From positions 132,095-196,094 of the forward strand of contig JAUSNP010000006.1 in assembly GCA_030645735.1 (NCBI GenBank): a stretch of DNA of 64,000 nucleotides, given 5' to 3'. A model generated the notes under the pieces. The model saw nothing but the letters and a program-made list of their open reading frames with translations. It was not told where the DNA came from and ran no database searches. Below are positions 2,726 to 53,428 of the stretch, in pieces. Source of the stretch: Candidatus Moraniibacteriota bacterium (GTDB lineage Bacteria; Patescibacteriota; Minisyncoccia; Moranbacterales; UBA2206). Positions within the stretch are counted from its first letter, which is position 1. Every line of letters starts with the position of its first letter. Position numbers and translations under genes: made by a program.

Positions 2726-2913
2726 TAGAGTCTGTTTATAATCTCATGCCTAGATAAAATATTATAATTTCGTGCGAAAACCGTGAAAAGTGAGGAAGGC
2801 TATCGAGATAACCTGACGAGCTTTGAAGGGTTTGCAGCCGAAATTAGAATATTTTAGCAGGCAAGCAATATATTAGTTTTTAAAATAAGCGGTGAGATTA
2901 TAAACAGACTCTA
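2726..2913. repeat. Perfect 20-bp inverted repeat (TAGAGTCTGTTTATAATCTC / GAGATTATAAACAGACTCTA) bracketing the whole def-priA intergenic region
   Basis: The two arms are exact reverse complements, separated by 148 bp. Confidence 0.6.
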
Positions 2914-6106: not shown

Positions 6107-6886
6107 ATGAGTAGTATTTTGGGAGTTACAATTGATAATTTTTCTAAACAAGAAATACTTCACAAAGTAGACACTTTTTTATTAGAAGACTGTTTCCATC
6201 AAATAGCCACAGTCAATCCGGAGTTTATTTTGCAAGCGCAAAAAGACGCAGAATTCAAAAGCATTCTGAATGCTTGTGATTTGCACGTAGCAGATGGGGT
6301 TGGTATTTGGTTTGCTTTTTTACGCTTCGGGAGCTTCTTGAAAAACAGAATGACTGGCATTGATTTGATGTCGGATATTTTGCGCATGGCCAATGAAAAA
6401 AAGTTGAAAGTTTTTCTGGTTAGCTATGCTGGCGCTTTGAGTTCGTGGGAAGAAACAAGGGATGCTATTGCGAAAATTTATCCTAATTTAGAAATTAATG
6501 GAGCAAATTTAAACACTGTCATTGCGAGGAGAGAAACGACGAAGCAATCTCATACTGATACACAAAAGTCTGGTGAGTCTAAAAAGGAGATTGCCACGCT
6601 CCTTTCAGTCGCTCGCAATGACATTGTGTTTTGCAATTTAGGAATGTCTAAACAAGAAAAATTCCTGCACTCGCTAAAAACCCTAGAAAATGCTAAAATA
6701 AAACTAACAATGGGAGTGGGTGGCAGCTTCGATTTCTTGACTGGTAAGCGCCAAAGAGCCCCAAAATTTTTGCAAAAAATCGGACTGGAATGGCTGTGGC
6801 GCTTTGTCCAAGAACCGAAATATCGCGCCAAAAGAATTTTTCACGCCGTGGTGATTTTTTCAATCAAAGTAATTTTTAATTTGTAA
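6107..6886 (+). CDS. WecG/TagA/CpsF-family glycosyltransferase (GT26) carrying a ~35-aa in-frame insertion of a palindromic element
   Basis: HQIATVNPEF, DGVGIWFA and LGMSKQEKF motifs typical of the family; the insert lies between them. Confidence 0.7.
   Translation: MSSILGVTIDNFSKQEILHKVDTFLLEDCFHQIATVNPEFILQAQKDAEFKSILNACDLHVADGVGIWFAFLRFGSFLKNRMTGIDLMSDILRMANEKKLKVFLVSYAGALSSWEETRDAIAKIYPNLEINGANLNTVIARRETTKQSHTDTQKSGESKKEIATLLSVARNDIVFCNLGMSKQEKFLHSLKTLENAKIKLTMGVGGSFDFLTGKRQRAPKFLQKIGLEWLWRFVQEPKYRAKRIFHAVVIFSIKVIFNL
6517..6623. mobile_element. Palindromic element family A, copy 1 (TGTCATTGCGAG...CTCGCAATGACA), inside a coding sequence
   Basis: 12-bp terminal inverted repeats; ~90 percent identical to the copy at 30528-30634 when reverse-complemented. 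Confidence 0.75.
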
Positions 6887-29168: not shown

Positions 29169-29720
29169 TTAAGCCAATACTTTATTTAAATCTTCCGGAT
29201 TATTAAAGAAAATTATTTTCGATTTAGTTTTATGCCCTTCTTTAATAAATTCTTTTATTGTATGCCCTGTTATGCCCCCACTTCCCTCTAAAACATACAT
29301 GTCCTTCGACATTCCACTAGTTATTGTAACCTCGTACATTGTGCCTACCTTCCCGCTAATAACTATTGCCATGTCAATGTTTAAGCACATATCCAAAGAC
29401 CTCAGATAATTATCAATGCCTAATAATTTTTTATTAAAATACTTTTTTTGAAAAATAACATTGGCATATTTTGATAAATCAACATTATGAAATTGTGAAT
29501 GATCCGACATGGATTTCCCAACGGCATATGAAATTACTTTTCCACCATTTTTAATTGCAGAAAGTGCTACTGCATGAGGATAGCCGCTTGTGCCACCCGT
29601 TACTACGGTATGATTATTAATGGCAATCAATTTGCCAATTTCTTTCGCCTTTTTAATTATTTCTTTATCACTAGCCTTGGTTGTTCCAAAAATTCCTATT
29701 TTCATAATTTTATTTCTCAT
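29169..29720 (-). CDS. LOG/SLOG-like Rossmann-fold protein (TIGR00725-like)
   Basis: IGIFG...VVTGGTSGYPHAVALSA and later VLEGSGGITGHT segments. Confidence 0.45.
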   Translation of the reverse strand: MRNKIMKIGIFGTTKASDKEIIKKAKEIGKLIAINNHTVVTGGTSGYPHAVALSAIKNGGKVISYAVGKSMSDHSQFHNVDLSKYANVIFQKKYFNKKLLGIDNYLRSLDMCLNIDMAIVISGKVGTMYEVTITSGMSKDMYVLEGSGGITGHTIKEFIKEGHKTKSKIIFFNNPEDLNKVLA

Positions 29721-31329
29721 TACTAATAAAAGCTATTCCCAAAAACACCCACAAAAATCCCAGCATAATTCCGGAGTTGAAGAGATTTGGAATAGTCAAA
29801 GCAAACCAACCGAGCAGGATGAAGAGTGGCAAGAATTTCTGTGAATCTTTGGCCAGGAAAAAGTCGCGCGCGGATTTGCCAAGAATCCAAAGCCAAACTG
29901 CCAAAAATGCCAAGAGACCAATGATACCAGAACCCAACCAAATTTCCAGAAAGATGTTGCTGGCATTGAGTCCAGTTCCACGCTCATCGGTGCCCAAGTA
30001 TGAACTGACGTTGCCCCAACCGATTCCTAGGATTGGATTTTGCTTTATCAAATTCCAAGATTTTTTGTAAATTTCTGATCGCACATTCACATTGGGATCC
30101 CTTCGGAAAACTTCCGTCACAAAATGACCAGCTGATTTTTCAGTTTCAACTTCTTCCAAATTTATATGCCTACAATTTATTGTTTCTAGATCGCTAAGTT
30201 CTTGTGGTTGCGCATCAAAACTTTTTTCTTCCAAACAAGAGATGGTTATCTTCTGCAACCCACCCGTGCTTTGCACACGATTAGCTAATTGAAAATTGGT
30301 CAGATGGAAAAAATATACCATGACAACAGCAATCATGAATGCGCATATCACTTTGATTTTCATCCAAAAAGCCTCTCTCCATTGCCACTCCCTAAAATTC
30401 AATTTCAATCGAGTGATGACCGCAAACCACAAAAGAATAGTCACTCCCACTGCTCCCAGCCAAGCGCTTCTTGAGACAGTGAGAATAAGTGCTATAAAAA
30501 TTAGTGTCAAAAAAATAAATATGATCATGTCATTGCGAGCGACTGAAAGGAGCGCGGCAATCTCTTTCTGAGACTCCTCAGGCCTTTGTGTATCAGTATG
30601 AGATTGCTTCGTCGTTTCCCTCCTCGCAATGACAGTGTTTTGGTATAAAATAGTATAAATAATTGCCAACAAAAGAACTAGGAAAATGCCGAGCCAATCC
30701 GCTTCCGCAAAAGTTCCATTCGGTCTCCCTGGCATCACTTCAAAATGACTTGCGCCACGCATAAACTGAATATTTTGCCAGATGCCATACAAAACTACGA
30801 CAACCGACGAGCTCAAGAAAAATGGAATGACTTTTTTCAAATCTTCTGATGTCTGAATATAATTGCGTACGAGGAAGTATAAAAAAATAAACGATGTCAA
30901 AACCACTGATTGCTTCAAGCCCACTCCTCTGTTGCTAGCAAAAATTGCACTCACAAAACTGGCGGCGCCAAACACAATCATTGCCCAATCATACCAAGCT
31001 AATCTAATTAATTTGAAATTCAAACGTTTGGTCGCCAAGCGAATGATGATGGCCAAAATTGTCAGCCCGCCAAAAAATTGATACGGACGAATAGCTATGC
31101 CCAATTCCACTGGCGCCAAATTGATATTTTCCAACATACTTGTCCCGGCAAACAACAAAAATCCCCAGCCGGGACGATAGAGTGTCAAAAGCAAAGTCAA
31201 AATCGCGAAGAAAATGAAATCTTCCAAACGCAATGGCAAAACATTCAGATTGAAAAGCATAATGGCAAAAAAGACCAAAGCGACATTGGTAATTAGCAGG
31301 AGTATTTGATTTTTATTTTTTAGAAACAT
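29710..31329 (-). CDS. O-antigen ligase / Wzy-like polytopic membrane protein carrying an in-frame palindromic-element insertion
   Basis: About 11 TM helices plus periplasmic loop; contains VIARRETTKQSHTDTQ...LLSVARND as in the GT26 gene. Confidence 0.55.
   Translation of the reverse strand: MFLKNKNQILLLITNVALVFFAIMLFNLNVLPLRLEDFIFFAILTLLLTLYRPGWGFLLFAGTSMLENINLAPVELGIAIRPYQFFGGLTILAIIIRLATKRLNFKLIRLAWYDWAMIVFGAASFVSAIFASNRGVGLKQSVVLTSFIFLYFLVRNYIQTSEDLKKVIPFFLSSSVVVVLYGIWQNIQFMRGASHFEVMPGRPNGTFAEADWLGIFLVLLLAIIYTILYQNTVIARRETTKQSHTDTQRPEESQKEIAALLSVARNDMIIFIFLTLIFIALILTVSRSAWLGAVGVTILLWFAVITRLKLNFREWQWREAFWMKIKVICAFMIAVVMVYFFHLTNFQLANRVQSTGGLQKITISCLEEKSFDAQPQELSDLETINCRHINLEEVETEKSAGHFVTEVFRRDPNVNVRSEIYKKSWNLIKQNPILGIGWGNVSSYLGTDERGTGLNASNIFLEIWLGSGIIGLLAFLAVWLWILGKSARDFFLAKDSQKFLPLFILLGWFALTIPNLFNSGIMLGFLWVFLGIAFISNEK
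30528..30634. mobile_element. Palindromic element family A, copy 2, inside a coding sequence (inverted relative to copy 1, same orientation relative to its host gene)
   Basis: TGTCATTGCGAG...CTCGCAATGACA termini; ~90 percent identical to copy 1. Confidence 0.75.
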
Positions 31330-31343
31330 TTTATTTATTGCAT

Positions 31344-31423
31344 TGTCATTCCCGTGAAAACGGGAATCTAGTGTAGAAACTTAATAATGCACGACTGGAT
31401 TCCCGATCAGGTCGGGAATGACA
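31344..31423. repeat. Element family B, short variant (TGTCATTCCCG...CGGGAATGACA) filling a stop-to-start gap
   Basis: Two hairpins, ATTCCCG-TGAAAA-CGGGAAT and TCCCGA-TCAGG-TCGGGA. Confidence 0.65.
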
Positions 31424-34109: not shown

Positions 34110-34210
34110 TGTCATTGCGAGGAAGTTCCGCCTCGGAACGACCGCGGCAATCCCAAGCATTGATGCATTGAATATGAGATTGCCACGCTCCTTCGTCGCT
34201 CGCAATGACA
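34110..34210. mobile_element. Palindromic element family A, copy 3 (intergenic)
   Basis: Same TGTCATTGCGAGGA...GAGATTGCCACGCTCCT...CTCGCAATGACA termini and subterminal blocks. Confidence 0.7.
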
Positions 34211-34482: not shown

Positions 34483-35468
34483 TGCGACTAATTGTAAACA
34501 TTCCAGCCTACAACGAAGAAAGTATTGTGGGTGAAACCATCGCCAAAATCAAAGAAAGCTTCAAGGCTGATTTTTATACCAATAAAGGCGCTGTCATCAC
34601 GGAAAAATTGATCCAAGTGGTAGACGATGGCTCTACTGATGCCACCGCGCAAGTTGCCAAGGAAGCTGGCGCAGATATCGTAGTTTCCTACAAACCCAAT
34701 CGCCGACTCGCCTATTCTTTCAAGCAGGCCGTGGAAAGTTCACTCGTAAACGGCGCTGATTTGATGGTCAACATTGACGCTGACGGACAATTCAATGCCA
34801 ATGACATTCCGCAACTTTTGACTCCGATTTTGGAAGGTGATGTGGACATGGTCATCGCCAATCGCTTTGGTGAAATTGCCGCCAAAAACATTCCGTGGGT
34901 TAGAAAAAATCTAAATAAATTTGCTGCCAGCGTAATCGGCTTTTTCTTAGGTTACAAAACTAACGACCTGACTTGCGGTTTCCGTGCGCACAATCGCGAA
35001 GCTATGTTGCGCTTGAATTTGACCAATGTGCATTTCACCTACACTCAAGAAACTATCATCGATGCGATTGGCAAAAATTTGAAACTGGCCTGGGTGCCGA
35101 TTGAAGTCACCTATTTCGACCACCGTGAGGCCAAAATCACCAAATCACTTTGGAAATTTGTGAACAACTCCACCAAAATCATCTTGAAGGCCGTGCGGGA
35201 TGTGCGACCAATGAAATTCTTTGGAATTCCTGGGCTATTCTTGATTTTCCTTTCCCTGATTTCATTTGCAATTTTCCTATACAACTATTTCCCTGATTTC
35301 AAAATCACTCAATATAGAAACTACCTAATTTTCGGCATTGCCTTGTTTTTAGTTGGACTGCAATTTGTCGTCTTCGCCCTGATTGCTGACATGATCAAAT
35401 CCTCACGTCAATTGACGGAAGAATTGATGTATCAGTGGAAGAAGGATAAGTTTAATAATAAAAAGTAG
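34482..35468 (+). CDS. GT2 glycosyltransferase (polyprenyl-phosphate sugar transferase-like) with C-terminal TM helices
   Basis: IPAYNEE...DDGSTD...D-x-D layout. Confidence 0.75.
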   Translation: MRLIVNIPAYNEESIVGETIAKIKESFKADFYTNKGAVITEKLIQVVDDGSTDATAQVAKEAGADIVVSYKPNRRLAYSFKQAVESSLVNGADLMVNIDADGQFNANDIPQLLTPILEGDVDMVIANRFGEIAAKNIPWVRKNLNKFAASVIGFFLGYKTNDLTCGFRAHNREAMLRLNLTNVHFTYTQETIIDAIGKNLKLAWVPIEVTYFDHREAKITKSLWKFVNNSTKIILKAVRDVRPMKFFGIPGLFLIFLSLISFAIFLYNYFPDFKITQYRNYLIFGIALFLVGLQFVVFALIADMIKSSRQLTEELMYQWKKDKFNNKK

Positions 35469-35516
35469 TTTACTTTTTTATACAAAGCTTTAATTAAGCC
35501 GAAATACATCGGCTAT

Positions 35517-35545
35517 ATTGACTTATTTGCAAAATAGGTATATAA
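35517..35545 (+). promoter_or_regulatory. Consensus sigma70-type promoter TTGACT-17-TATAAT
   Basis: Hexamers and spacing read directly; ~75-nt leader with AAAGGAGA RBS follows. Confidence 0.5.
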
Positions 35546-35619
35546 TATTAATCTGGCTGAAATCAGTGCCAGCATCGTATAATTGGGTCATAGTGAACCC
35601 ATCTCAAAGGAGAAAAATC

Positions 35620-35997
35620 ATGAACTTTAAAAAATTAACTATCACCATTGCAGGAGACCTCAAAGGTAAACTTCAAGGAAATTACGCATTGCAAACCTCC
35701 TTGGGAATGCAGTCTGCATTGAAGTTTTCAAATGGAATCATACTCATCAATTTGACTCCAGCAGATTCAAACCTTGAATTATTTTCTGATTGTAAACTAT
35801 TTAAAAGCAAAGCCATCAGAAATGATGATTTGCGAAAAGCATTTGACGCGTGCAACCGCATATCTGTCGAGCTGTCAGCATGTAATGCCGGAGCAATTTG
35901 TCTCAGAGCTAAATTCTTCAGTTCTGGTAAAAATTCGTTCTTCGAGATTACGGCACTATTCGCCATCGAAGATGGTAGAATCATTGCGCTAGCCTAA
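35620..35997 (+). CDS. Small hypothetical protein (125 aa; 5 Cys); start chosen at the ATG that has an RBS
   Basis: AAAGGAGAAAAATC-ATG; the annotated longer ORF start lacks an RBS and overlaps the promoter. Confidence 0.4.
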   Translation: MNFKKLTITIAGDLKGKLQGNYALQTSLGMQSALKFSNGIILINLTPADSNLELFSDCKLFKSKAIRNDDLRKAFDACNRISVELSACNAGAICLRAKFFSSGKNSFFEITALFAIEDGRIIALA

Positions 35998-36077
35998 TTC
36001 GCAACAGAACAGTCAGACTGGCAAGGGCTGTTCAAGTGCCACAAGCACTGAAGTTTTGCTAAACCTCTAATTTATGG

Positions 36078-36103
36078 ATTTTTCTTAGTAGCGGCGAGCG
36101 AAC
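36078..36103. other. Short 23S rRNA-like fragment (GATTTTTCTTAGTAGCGGCGAGCGAAC)
   Basis: 17-mer AGTAGCGGCGAGCGAAC is identical to the conserved domain I 23S rRNA sequence; flanks are not rRNA-like. Confidence 0.4.
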
Positions 36104-36237
36104 AGAAAAGATTTCTTTTCAGCACCAGCTGAGGAAATGTAGTGTCCATATTGCAGAGGTTTTTTTATTTTTTCATAGCCCACAGATAGCTTGAAAATTA
36201 ACTTGTTTTAAGGTAGAATTAGATAGTAAATTAACCC

Positions 36238-36337
36238 TGTCATCCTGAACTTTATTCAGGATCTACTCTGCGTTTCACTGAGATAAATTTAGATTAATGA
36301 TACAGTGAGCAGATTCCGGGTCAAGCCCGGAATGACA
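36238..36337. repeat. Element family B, copy 2 (orientation 1)
   Basis: TGTCATCCTGAAC...TTCAGGAT and ATTCCGGGTCAAGCCCGGAATGACA hairpins; ends 11 nt before the ATG of the next gene. Confidence 0.75.
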
Positions 36338-37435: not shown

Positions 37436-37535
37436 TGTCATTCCGGCCTTGAGCCGGAATCTACTCACCGTATCGTGAATCTAAATTTAATTCAGTGAAA
37501 TGTAAAATAGATCCCGGGTCAAGCCCGGGATGACA
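37436..37535. repeat. Element family B, copy 3 (orientation 2)
   Basis: TGTCATTCCGGCCTTGAGCCGGAATCT...GATCCCGGGTCAAGCCCGGGATGACA; fills the gap from 4 nt after the stop to 10 nt before the next start. Confidence 0.8.
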
Positions 37536-39773: not shown

Positions 39774-39874
39774 TGTCATCCCGGGCTTGACCCGGGATCT
39801 ACTCTGCGTTTCACTGAATTAAATTTAGATTCGCAATTACAGTGAGCAGATTCCGGCTCAAGGCCGGAATGACA
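39774..39874. repeat. Element family B, copy 4 (orientation 1)
   Basis: TGTCATCCCGGGCTTGACCCGGGATCT...AGATTCCGGCTCAAGGCCGGAATGACA. Confidence 0.8.
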
Positions 39875-45686: not shown

Positions 45687-45787
45687 TGTCATTCCGGCCT
45701 TGAGCCGGAATCTACTTACTGTTATCGCGAATCTAAATTTATCTTAGTGAAAGATAAAGAAGATCCCGGGTCAAGCCCGGGATGACA
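45687..45787. repeat. Element family B, copy 5 (orientation 2)
   Basis: TGTCATTCCGGCCTTGAGCCGGAATCT...GATCCCGGGTCAAGCCCGGGATGACA. Confidence 0.8.
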
Positions 45788-53329: not shown

Positions 53330-53428
53330 TGTCATTCCGGCCTTGAGCCGGAATCTGCTTACTGTAATCGTGAAATTTAATTTATTGCATGAACCAAAAG
53401 AAGATCCCGGGTCAAGCCCGGGATGACA
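53330..53428. repeat. Element family B, copy 6 (orientation 2)
   Basis: Same two hairpins and TGTCAT/ATGACA ends. Confidence 0.8.

What the first reader, a model, noticed from the sequence alone, without database searches (positions are those of the whole stretch)
6517..6623. Palindromic element sitting in-frame inside a WecG/TagA-type glycosyltransferase gene
A 107-bp sequence with 12-bp terminal inverted repeats (TGTCATTGCGAG...CTCGCAATGACA) lies inside the coding sequence, and the reading frame continues through it. It adds roughly 35 residues (NTVIARRETTKQSHTDTQKSGESKKEIATLLSVARNDIVF) between conserved blocks of the WecG/TagA family. The only precedent I know is the Rickettsia palindromic elements (RPEs), which also sit inside genes. 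Both strands of the element keep open reading frames, which is what a palindrome selected to be translatable would show.
Basis: partly seen in the sequence, partly recalled or inferred. Interest (0 to 1): 0.78.

Follow-up and report, generated by a model that had tools for sequence, protein, structure and literature searches.

The report
Mobile palindromic repeat translated inside genes
A ~107-base hairpin-forming repeat from a family found across many bacterial phyla sits in-frame in a variable loop of a cell-wall glycosyltransferase gene of a Candidatus Moranbacteria genome (and of a second gene nearby); the sequence is real, but in-frame palindromic repeats of this kind are already documented well beyond Rickettsia.

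Summary
A 107-nt element with perfect 12-nt inverted ends lies at 6517-6623 inside an intact WecG/TagA gene, and the frame reads through it.

It is one of three copies in the window. A 92%-identical copy sits in the same reading frame inside an O-antigen-ligase-family (Wzy_C) gene, and a third copy is intergenic. Six further ~80-100-nt TGTC...GACA palindromes of sister types are all intergenic.

The same modular element occurs in at least 120 loci from many phyla: TGTCATTGCGAG - variable - CGAAGCAATCTC - loop - GAGATTGCYWCG - variable - CTCGCAATGACA. About 10-15% of copies lie in long open frames.

It shares the head (TGTC, then ATT...AAT) and the dimer layout of the published 'CGTC-tagged REP' superfamily, which includes Rickettsia RPE-4 and RPE-6. 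In-frame copies of that superfamily are listed for many species.

In 26 of 104 WecG homologues, four subfamilies occupy this same loop, and the carriers are polyphyletic. A syntenic relative lacks several window copies.

AlphaFold predicts helix-coil-helix for the insert, where element-free orthologues have a 15-residue coil.

RPEs are not the only precedent.

Verdict: a new member of a known kind, of modest interest. How the element moves is unknown.

The parts
6517..6623 (+). Copy c1 of the palindromic element (the finding). Outer arms are 6517-6528 and 6612-6623; inner arms are CGAAGCAATCTC 6540-6551 and GAGATTGCCACG 6587-6598; the spacer/loop is 6552-6586. It is probably 108 nt if the C at 6516 is counted.
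6107..6886 (+). Host gene: WecG/TagA-family glycosyltransferase, 259 aa, intact. Element-coded residues are about 137-172.
   Evidence: Pfam E = 6.6e-37; NCBIfam TIGR00696; PDB TagA 7mpk E = 1.5e-37; AF2 pLDDT 92.6 and Foldseek target-normalised TM 0.85-0.88 to TagA/TarA
30528..30634 (-). Copy c2, 92% identical to c1, in the opposite orientation on the + strand. It is in-frame in the same peptide frame (TVIARRETTKQSHTDTQRPEESQKEIAALLSVARND).
29710..31329 (-). Host gene of c2: O-antigen-ligase-family (Wzy_C) membrane protein, 539 aa. The element lies in a hypervariable loop between two hydrophobic, presumably membrane-spanning, segments.
   Evidence: Pfam Wzy_C E = 1.9e-19; the 78%-identical homologue P0124 lacks the element
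34110..34210 (.). Copy c3, 101 nt, intergenic, with the same arms but a divergent middle (64-66% identity to c1). It is absent from the syntenic relative L125.
31344..31423 (.). Sister-type dimer with classical CGTC-1-like units (TGTC-ATTCCCGT-GAAA-ACGGGAAT-C ... GATTCCCGATCAGGTCGGGAATGACA). It is intergenic, and L125 has no spacer at that position.
36238..36337 (.). Sister-type ~100-nt TGTC...GACA dimer (CCGG type), intergenic.
37436..37535 (.). Sister-type dimer (CCGG type) starting 5 nt after a stop codon. It is absent from L125.
39774..39874 (.). Sister-type dimer (CCGG type). L125 carries a different TGTC dimer at the same intergenic position.
45687..45787 (.). Sister-type dimer (CCGG type), intergenic, 13 nt after a stop codon.
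53330..53428 (.). Sister-type dimer (CCGG type), intergenic, 15 nt after a stop codon.

Best explanation
The 107/108-nt sequence is a copy of a non-autonomous, hairpin-forming dispersed repeat. It is built as an inverted pair of TGTC-headed units, which makes it REP-dimer or MITE-like.

It landed in, or replaced, a structurally permissive and hypervariable loop of the WecG/TagA gene. It persists there because its length keeps the frame and the frame in use has no stop codon. It is therefore transcribed and translated as part of the enzyme.

The insert adds a polar helix-coil-helix excursion between two strands of the Rossmann-like fold. The catalytic blocks are left intact.

The family is or was recently mobile in this lineage and is spread across many phyla.

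Shown: repeat-family membership, the insertion relative to homologues, an intact host gene, presence/absence differences from a close relative, and a compensated inner stem.

Inferred: that the protein is made with the insert; that retention in this loop is mainly a selective filter; and that movement uses a single-strand hairpin-recognising enzyme supplied in trans. No such enzyme was identified.
For: Repeat family:
- There are three copies in 64 kb with identical 12-nt arms, and c1 and c2 are 92% identical although they sit in unrelated genes.
- At least 120 loci in GTDB species genomes and at least 120 in JGI metagenomes carry the same modular architecture.

Insertion rather than native sequence:
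- Typical homologues have a 17-18-residue loop.
- Only 5 of 104 carry this type. They are polyphyletic, and the window protein nests among non-carriers P0002/3/4/7.
- c1 is closer to c2 (92%) than to the elements at the orthologous site in L001 and L002 (79-80%).

Mobility: the syntenic locus L125 (81-90% DNA identity) lacks c3 and the dimers at 37436 and 31344. It has a different loop where c2 sits.

Host intact:
- All invariant columns are present.
- AF2 pLDDT is 92.6 and the fold matches TagA.

Insert structure:
- Helix 137-144, low-confidence coil 145-154, helix 155-169.
- The element-free orthologue P0003 has a 15-residue coil there.

Hairpin:
- dG is -47 kcal/mol, z = -6.5.
- Bases just inside the conserved inner arms pair more often than in any of 500 shuffles, at 4 of 6 positions across 112 elements.

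Kinship with CGTC-tagged REPs:
- The TGTC head and the ATT...AAT stem ends match the published description.
- Canonical TGTC-ATTCCCGT-GAAA-ACGGGAAT units are present in the same window.
- A CGTC-1-type dimer occupies the same WecG loop in L247.
Against: - No empty site in a close relative was available for the WecG copy. Its exact boundaries, any target duplication, and the order of events (insertion plus loss of the native ~14-residue loop, or replacement of an older element) are unresolved.
- No transposase or other recurrent neighbouring gene was found. The largest shared family occurs in 6 of 120 loci.
- The single unit has only a 5-bp ATTGC/GCAAT stem and a 12-40-nt loop. It therefore departs from the published CGTC unit, which has an 8-9-bp stem and a 4-5-nt loop.
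- There is no expression or proteomic evidence that the insert is present in the mature protein.
- c1 and c2 differ mostly by non-synonymous changes in the spacer. This reading was done by eye on the alignment and gives no sign of selection on the peptide.
Confidence: 0.85

Rival explanations
1. Site-specific homing or replacement. The loop is a true hotspot because elements of this superfamily insert into, or recombine with, a resident palindrome through the shared TGTCATT/AATGACA ends or through hairpin targeting. On this view recurrent occupancy reflects the element's mechanism and not only selection for a permissive loop.
For: - Four TGTC subfamilies begin directly after the same N-[IL]-[NDE] codons in different WecG lineages, or 2 nt later for this type.
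- The same pattern is seen in the Wzy_C loop.
- The window and L125 carry different dimers at one intergenic spot.
- The 'element-free' L003 loop is itself a palindrome with a 17-bp stem.
- Flanks of several copies in other phyla extend the palindrome.
- PMC3733652 reports REP dimers sitting inside palindromes.
Against: - Selection alone would also concentrate surviving insertions in the few permissive loops.
- Intergenic spacers in this genome are short, so re-use by chance is plausible.
- No conserved target motif emerged from 128 flank pairs.
Confidence: 0.3
2. The hairpin is kept for an RNA- or DNA-level role in the host gene, for example translational pausing, mRNA stability, or a protein-binding site. 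On this view the peptide is a by-product.
For: - The hairpin is very stable and its inner stem shows compensated pairing.
- Intergenic family members sit 5-15 nt after stop codons, as REPs with proposed RNA roles do.
- PMC3733652 discusses such roles.
Against: - The closest orthologues do without it.
- The same element occurs in unrelated contexts, including a second gene.
- Complementarity also arises automatically in an inverted-repeat element.
Confidence: 0.08
3. The segment is a native, ancestral helical segment of this WecG clade, the counterpart of the TagA helix before the VLFVALG strand, and most relatives have lost it.
For: - Canonical TagA has a helix at this position.
- The C-terminal half of the insert is predicted helical.
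- Five homologues share the peptide at identical boundaries.
Against: - The DNA is a near-perfect palindrome that is 92% identical to a copy in an unrelated membrane-protein gene. It is also related to an intergenic copy and to hundreds of copies in other phyla.
- The carriers are polyphyletic.
Confidence: 0.02
4. The segment is an assembly or binning artefact: a repeat-induced chimera in a metagenome-assembled genome.
For: The source is a MAG, and repeats can mis-join contigs.
Against: - Both flanks belong to one continuous, full-length, well-conserved WecG ORF, in synteny with LigT upstream and the riboflavin genes downstream, as in L003.
- Independent assemblies (L001, L002, L246, L247) show elements at the same site.
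Confidence: 0.01

Closest known systems
CGTC-tagged REP superfamily (Di Nocera, De Gregorio & Rocco 2013, BMC Genomics 14:522; includes Rickettsia RPE-4/RPE-6 and Neisseria dRS3)
   Same: - The head tetranucleotide is TGTC; the paper notes that CGTC is often changed to TGTC.
- The stem starts and ends with AT (ATT...AAT).
- Units are arranged as inverted dimers that can fold into one long hairpin.
- Most copies lie just downstream of genes.
- Some copies are in-frame inside genes, giving peptides of the same style (VIPAKAGI...IPAFAGMT there, VIARRETTKQS...SVARND here).
- No dedicated transposase is known.
- Canonical units of that superfamily co-occur in this window.
   Different: - The unit here has only a 5-bp ATTGC/GCAAT stem, with a 12-40-nt interior that often carries its own side hairpin.
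- There is a second conserved module (CGAAGCAATCTC / GAGATTGCTTCG).
- The tail is CTC or CCC, not CCA.
- The family was seen here in phyla not listed in that paper, for example Patescibacteria, Chloroflexota and Bacillota MAGs.
Rickettsia palindromic elements RPE-1 and relatives (Ogata et al. 2000, from my own knowledge; summarised in PMC10969869)
   Same: Both are ~100-150-nt palindromic repeats inserted in-frame in unrelated housekeeping genes. The encoded peptides are polar and are placed where they are compatible with the fold.
   Different: - The host phylum is different.
- No detectable sequence relationship was found: the 40-aa peptide hits no Pfam or NCBIfam model.
- Most copies of this family are intergenic.
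REPINs / GTAG REPs mobilised by RAYT tyrosine transposases
   Same: Both are inverted REP doublets forming a long hairpin, dispersed in the genome, and variable between close relatives.
   Different: - The head is TGTC, not GTAG.
- No RAYT or other recurrent gene lies next to the copies.
Bacterial MITEs with in-frame insertions (Coxiella QMITE1, ERIC, Nezha, Correia)
   Same: Both are small, non-autonomous, have terminal inverted repeats, and occasionally form translational fusions.
   Different: No target-site duplication and no parent IS with the same ends were found. The architecture is two REP-like units, not the eroded ends of an IS.

Membership tests
CGTC-tagged REP superfamily | Unpaired terminal tetranucleotide CGTC (TGTC or CCTC allowed) | tested here: met
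   TGTC is present at both outer ends of all three copies and of the six sister dimers. The definition is from PMC3733652.
CGTC-tagged REP superfamily | Stem of 8-9 bp whose first two pairs are A-T and T-A | tested here: inconclusive
   The AT start is present (ATTGC...GCAAT), but the unit stem is only 5 bp. The sister units in the window do have 8-bp stems.
CGTC-tagged REP superfamily | Loop of 4-5 nt | tested here: not met
   The unit interior is 11-13 nt in c1 and c2, and 12 to about 40 nt across the 125 copies, often with a nested hairpin.
CGTC-tagged REP superfamily | Short unpaired tail, mostly CCA | tested here: inconclusive
   The tail after GCAAT is CTC, CCC or CGC, and it pairs with the partner unit.
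CGTC-tagged REP superfamily | Frequent inverted dimers with 20-100-bp spacers that can fold into one hairpin | tested here: met
   35 nt lie between the inner arms, and the whole element folds at -47 kcal/mol.
Rickettsia palindromic elements (RPE-1 to RPE-10) | Sequence similarity to an RPE consensus or domain model | tested here: not met
   The 40-aa peptide matches no Pfam or NCBIfam family at E <= 1.
Rickettsia palindromic elements (RPE-1 to RPE-10) | Palindromic repeat inserted in-frame in functional genes | tested here: met
   Two genic in-frame copies in intact genes.
MITE (IS-derived) | Terminal inverted repeats and small size | tested here: met
   12-nt perfect terminal inverted repeats; 101-107 nt.
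MITE (IS-derived) | Target-site duplication | tested here: inconclusive
   No consistent direct repeat was found in 128 flank pairs. The comparisons with L125 are too diverged to fix boundaries.
MITE (IS-derived) | Parent IS or transposase with matching ends | tested here: not met
   No protein family recurs near the copies: at most 6 of 120 loci share one. The full genome of the window organism was not searched.
REPIN / RAYT system | GTAG head and a flanking RAYT gene | tested here: not met
   The head is TGTC, and no recurrent neighbour was found.
WecG/TagA/CpsF glycosyltransferase (host gene) | Match to the family profile above the curated cut-off, and the TagA fold | tested here: met
   PF03808 127 bits against a cut-off of 27.4; TIGR00696 112 bits against 69; Foldseek to 7mpk and 5wfg with probability 1.00.

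The most novel reading that the evidence does not exclude
The ATTGCGAG/GCAATCTC palindrome may be an undescribed, pan-bacterial branch of the TGTC/CGTC repeat superfamily. On this reading its members actively home to resident palindromes, so particular protein loops in Candidatus Moranbacteria (WecG and Wzy_C here) are repeatedly rebuilt by successive element insertions. Such elements would be a regular source of new protein segments: the C-terminal half supplies a helix where canonical TagA has one and element-free relatives have only a coil. The mobilising enzyme would be a still-unknown, widely distributed factor.
Probability: 0.2. Interest if true: 0.65.

Novelty: new member of a known kind. 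Interest (0 to 1): 0.4.

Why it matters
The case extends a known phenomenon, selfish palindromic repeats being translated inside functional genes, to an ultra-small-genome Candidate Phyla Radiation lineage. It also shows that one loop of one enzyme family has been occupied many times by different relatives of the same repeat superfamily.

This gives a tractable natural series: carriers, non-carriers and type switches at one site. That series can be used to ask whether such repeats target hairpins or are merely filtered by selection, and whether they contribute usable structure to proteins.

Practically, these peptides (VIAR..KQS, CHSERSEES, ..ARND, ..LAMT) inflate and confuse protein alignments and annotation in metagenomic genomes.

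Tried and rejected
- Exact-protein look-ups of the window WecG and of P0001 found no contig on record, so the rest of this genome could not be scanned.
- A search of the 5.8-billion-protein set with the insert peptide failed twice. The query was too short at 36 aa, and the 40-aa version had no candidate sharing three 5-residue words.
- The exhaustive phmmer of the 40-aa peptide against 1.84 billion representatives gave only two hits. Both matched query residues 12-34 in many repeated stretches of long proteins. The host range of the translated element therefore had to be estimated from DNA loci instead.
- Rfam at E <= 10 over 6300-6850 found no relevant RNA family.
- A full-text search for the element's DNA strings returned 30 papers. 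None of the 20 listed concerns a bacterial repeat element, and most look like chance primer matches.
- A search for CPR/Patescibacteria papers on palindromic or intragenic repeats found none.
- Looking for a target-site duplication or target motif in 128 flank pairs gave nothing consistent beyond a frequent C before one TGTC end.
- Intron or intein readings were rejected. The element is 107 nt, matches no ribozyme family, and has no intein motifs.
- The promoter/terminator scan added nothing decisive.

Full report
**What is there**

The window reads TGTCATTGCGAG at 6517-6528 and its exact reverse complement CTCGCAATGACA at 6612-6623. The 12-mer, allowing one mismatch, occurs seven times in the window against 0.39 expected, and none of 100 shuffles reaches seven. 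The 121-nt region folds into one long hairpin of -47.1 kcal/mol, z = -6.5.

The element lies inside ORF 6107-6886 (+), 259 aa. This ORF matches Pfam Glyco_tran_WecG at E = 6.6e-37, NCBIfam TIGR00696, and crystallised TagA (7mpk) at E = 1.5e-37. An identical protein is on record from a Candidatus Moranbacteria MAG on a 329,606-bp contig.

The frame runs through the element. The element supplies the third base of codon 137, codons 138-172, and the first base of codon 173. Every column invariant across 119 homologues is present, so the gene is not a pseudogene.

**It is a repeat**

The window contains two more copies.
- c2 (30528-30634) is 92% identical to c1 and lies in the opposite orientation on the + strand. 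It sits inside a 539-aa Wzy_C / O-antigen-ligase-family gene on the minus strand (Pfam E = 1.9e-19). Relative to its host it has the same orientation and frame as c1, and reads TVIARRETTKQSHTDTQRPEESQKEIAALLSVARND.
- c3 (34110-34210) is intergenic, with the same arms and a divergent middle.

Only two of the six frames of c1 and c2 are open, both on the strand used by the hosts.

The window also holds six other 80-101-nt TGTC...GACA palindromes of sister types. They start at 31344, 36238, 37436, 39774, 45687 and 53330, and all are intergenic. Four of them begin 5-15 nt after a stop codon.

**Distribution and architecture**

The organisms named include Patescibacteria, Bacteroidota (Mucilaginibacter, Flavobacterium), Chloroflexota, Planctomycetota, Proteobacteria, Cyanobacteria, Verrucomicrobia and Bacillota.

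All copies share one plan: TGTCATTGCGAG - variable stretch, often a small side hairpin - CG(A/T)(A/G)GCAATC(T/C)C - variable loop - G(A/G)GATTGC(Y)(W)CG - variable stretch - CTCGCAATGACA.

The bases just inside the conserved inner arms pair far more often than in shuffled partners. Four of six positions exceed all 500 shuffles across 112 elements. The long hairpin is therefore maintained, or regenerated, across unrelated genomes.

A metagenome scan with the left half also hit its limit at 120 loci.

About 15% (19 of 128) and 9% (6 of 67) of complete copies lie in frames open for at least 40-50 codons on both sides. The rest are intergenic. No protein family recurs next to the copies; the best candidate occurs in 6 of 120 loci. 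Rfam has no matching family.

**Insertion, not native sequence**

Of the 120 WecG homologues, 104 could be scored at this loop. The typical segment between the conserved P-x-L-x-I-x-G block and the IVFCNFG strand is 17-18 residues.
- Five carry this element type (VIAR..KQS..EIA..ARND).
- Eighteen carry a CHSERS..AQDD type.
- Two carry a CHSGL(D/E)PES type.
- One carries a canonical CHPRESGDP...LDSRLRGND type.
- All start right after the same N-[IL]-[NDE] codons.

DNA from representatives confirms TGTCAT...ATGACA palindromes of -38 to -48 kcal/mol at that spot. Even the 'empty' orthologue L003 has a different palindrome with a 17-bp stem there.

On a neighbour-joining tree built without the loop, carriers of each type are scattered. 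The window protein nests among non-carriers P0002/3/4/7. c1 is closer to c2 in the same genome (92%) than to the elements at the orthologous site in L001 and L002 (79-80%).

The Wzy_C loop shows the same pattern. Seven homologues carry the VIA type and about thirteen the CHSE type, while the closest homologue (78% identical) has neither.

**Evidence of recent mobility**

Locus L125, from the contig that encodes the 78%-identical Wzy_C homologue P0124 (a source names it Moranbacteria GW2011_GWA2_39_41), is syntenic with window positions 21-41 kb at 81-90% DNA identity.
- It lacks c3 and the dimers at 37436 and 31344.
- It has a different loop where c2 sits.
- It carries a different TGTC dimer where the window has the 39774 copy.

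**Consequence for the protein**

AlphaFold2 gives a confident TagA-like model: pLDDT 92.6, and Foldseek target-normalised TM 0.85-0.88 to 7mpk and 5wfg. The insert is predicted as follows:
- helix 137-144;
- low-confidence coil 145-154 (block pLDDT about 56);
- helix 155-169 (block pLDDT 69-89), leading into strand 173-176.

The element-free orthologue P0003 has a 15-residue coil between the corresponding strands. Canonical TagA has a native helix there. The net change relative to the nearest non-carriers is about +23 residues, because the usual ~14-residue loop is missing.

107 is not divisible by three. Counting the C that precedes TGTC in almost all copies, c1 and c2 are 108 nt and the L001/L002 copies 102 nt. 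These lengths are compatible with in-frame insertion without a target duplication, but the boundaries remain unproven.

**Comparison with what is known**

Di Nocera et al. 2013 (PMC3733652) define CGTC-tagged REPs as follows:
- head CGTC, often TGTC;
- stems of 8-9 bp starting with AT;
- loops of 4-5 nt;
- short tails, mostly CCA;
- frequent inverted dimers with 20-100-bp spacers;
- Rickettsia RPE-4 and RPE-6 as members;
- no dedicated transposase.

Their supplementary table lists many in-frame copies, for example VIPAKAGI...IPAFAGMT and SFPRKRES...DSRFRGND, plus dozens of GTAG REPs in Opitutus terrae. A 2024 review states that in-frame MITE fusions are not unusual.

The element here shares the head, the ATT...AAT stem ends, the dimer layout, the position after genes, and the style of encoded peptide. 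It also co-occurs with canonical units. Its unit, however, has only a 5-bp stem, a long interior, and an extra conserved inner module.

I therefore file it as working like, and probably related to, that superfamily, but not as a proven member of its four described families. I found no paper describing this particular sequence or such elements in the Candidate Phyla Radiation.

**Verdict**

The core interpretation, an in-frame palindromic mobile repeat, is right. The novelty claim and the 'both strands open' argument are not.

The most interesting residue is the repeated occupation of the same loops by different subfamilies. This may reflect hairpin-targeted insertion and not just selection, and it remains untested.

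Noticed in passing
window 2726-2746 and 2893-2913: A perfect 21-nt inverted repeat (TAGAGTCTGTTTATAATCTCA) flanks 146 nt. It is unrelated to the TGTC family and may be another small element or a structured RNA.
   Followed up: no
window ~35468-36237: A segment of about 780 bp with a small ORF has no counterpart in the syntenic relative L125. It abuts the TGTC dimer at 36238-36337.
   Followed up: partly
window 31344-31423, 36238-36337, 37436-37535, 39774-39874, 45687-45787, 53330-53428: Six further 80-101-nt TGTC...GACA palindromic dimers of two sister types, all intergenic. Four start 5-15 nt after a stop codon, and several are absent or replaced in L125.
   Followed up: partly
L003 10400-10470 (orthologous WecG loop): The 'element-free' orthologue's loop is itself a palindrome with a 17-bp stem (TTGGACACTGGGTGTCC...GACACTCAGTGTCCAA, -29.8 kcal/mol). 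It encodes ..TGCPMD..RHSVS.., and similar ECPxGHSVS peptides occur in P0008, P0029 and P0111.
   Followed up: partly
WecG homologues P0040, P0096, P0009, P0041 (alignment A2): These homologues carry two other in-frame insert sites. One is GLPPHLYSESNSEALSNSNSLNSNNFDLQNQRCRGK after SLKxxEN; its ends (PPHL / RCRG) look reverse-complement-coded. The other is NPRTISDEKIYGK / SPSTIQGKVLGK after FLxE.
   Followed up: no
Wzy_C homologues P0125-P0240: Most homologues carry an ISNFKFQISNQFSITKFQILK-like peptide in the same loop. This suggests yet another AT-rich repeat or a clade-specific motif.
   Followed up: no
L024, L106, L067 and others: In several genomes the sequences flanking the element are themselves inverted repeats (for example ACGTCGGC|element|GCCGACGT), as if the element sits in the middle of an older palindrome.
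   Followed up: no
L023 2152-2265 and 2370-2483: Two identical 114-nt copies lie 104 nt apart, with identical flanks, in a Faecousia (Bacillota) MAG. This indicates a local duplication of the element plus its surroundings.
   Followed up: no
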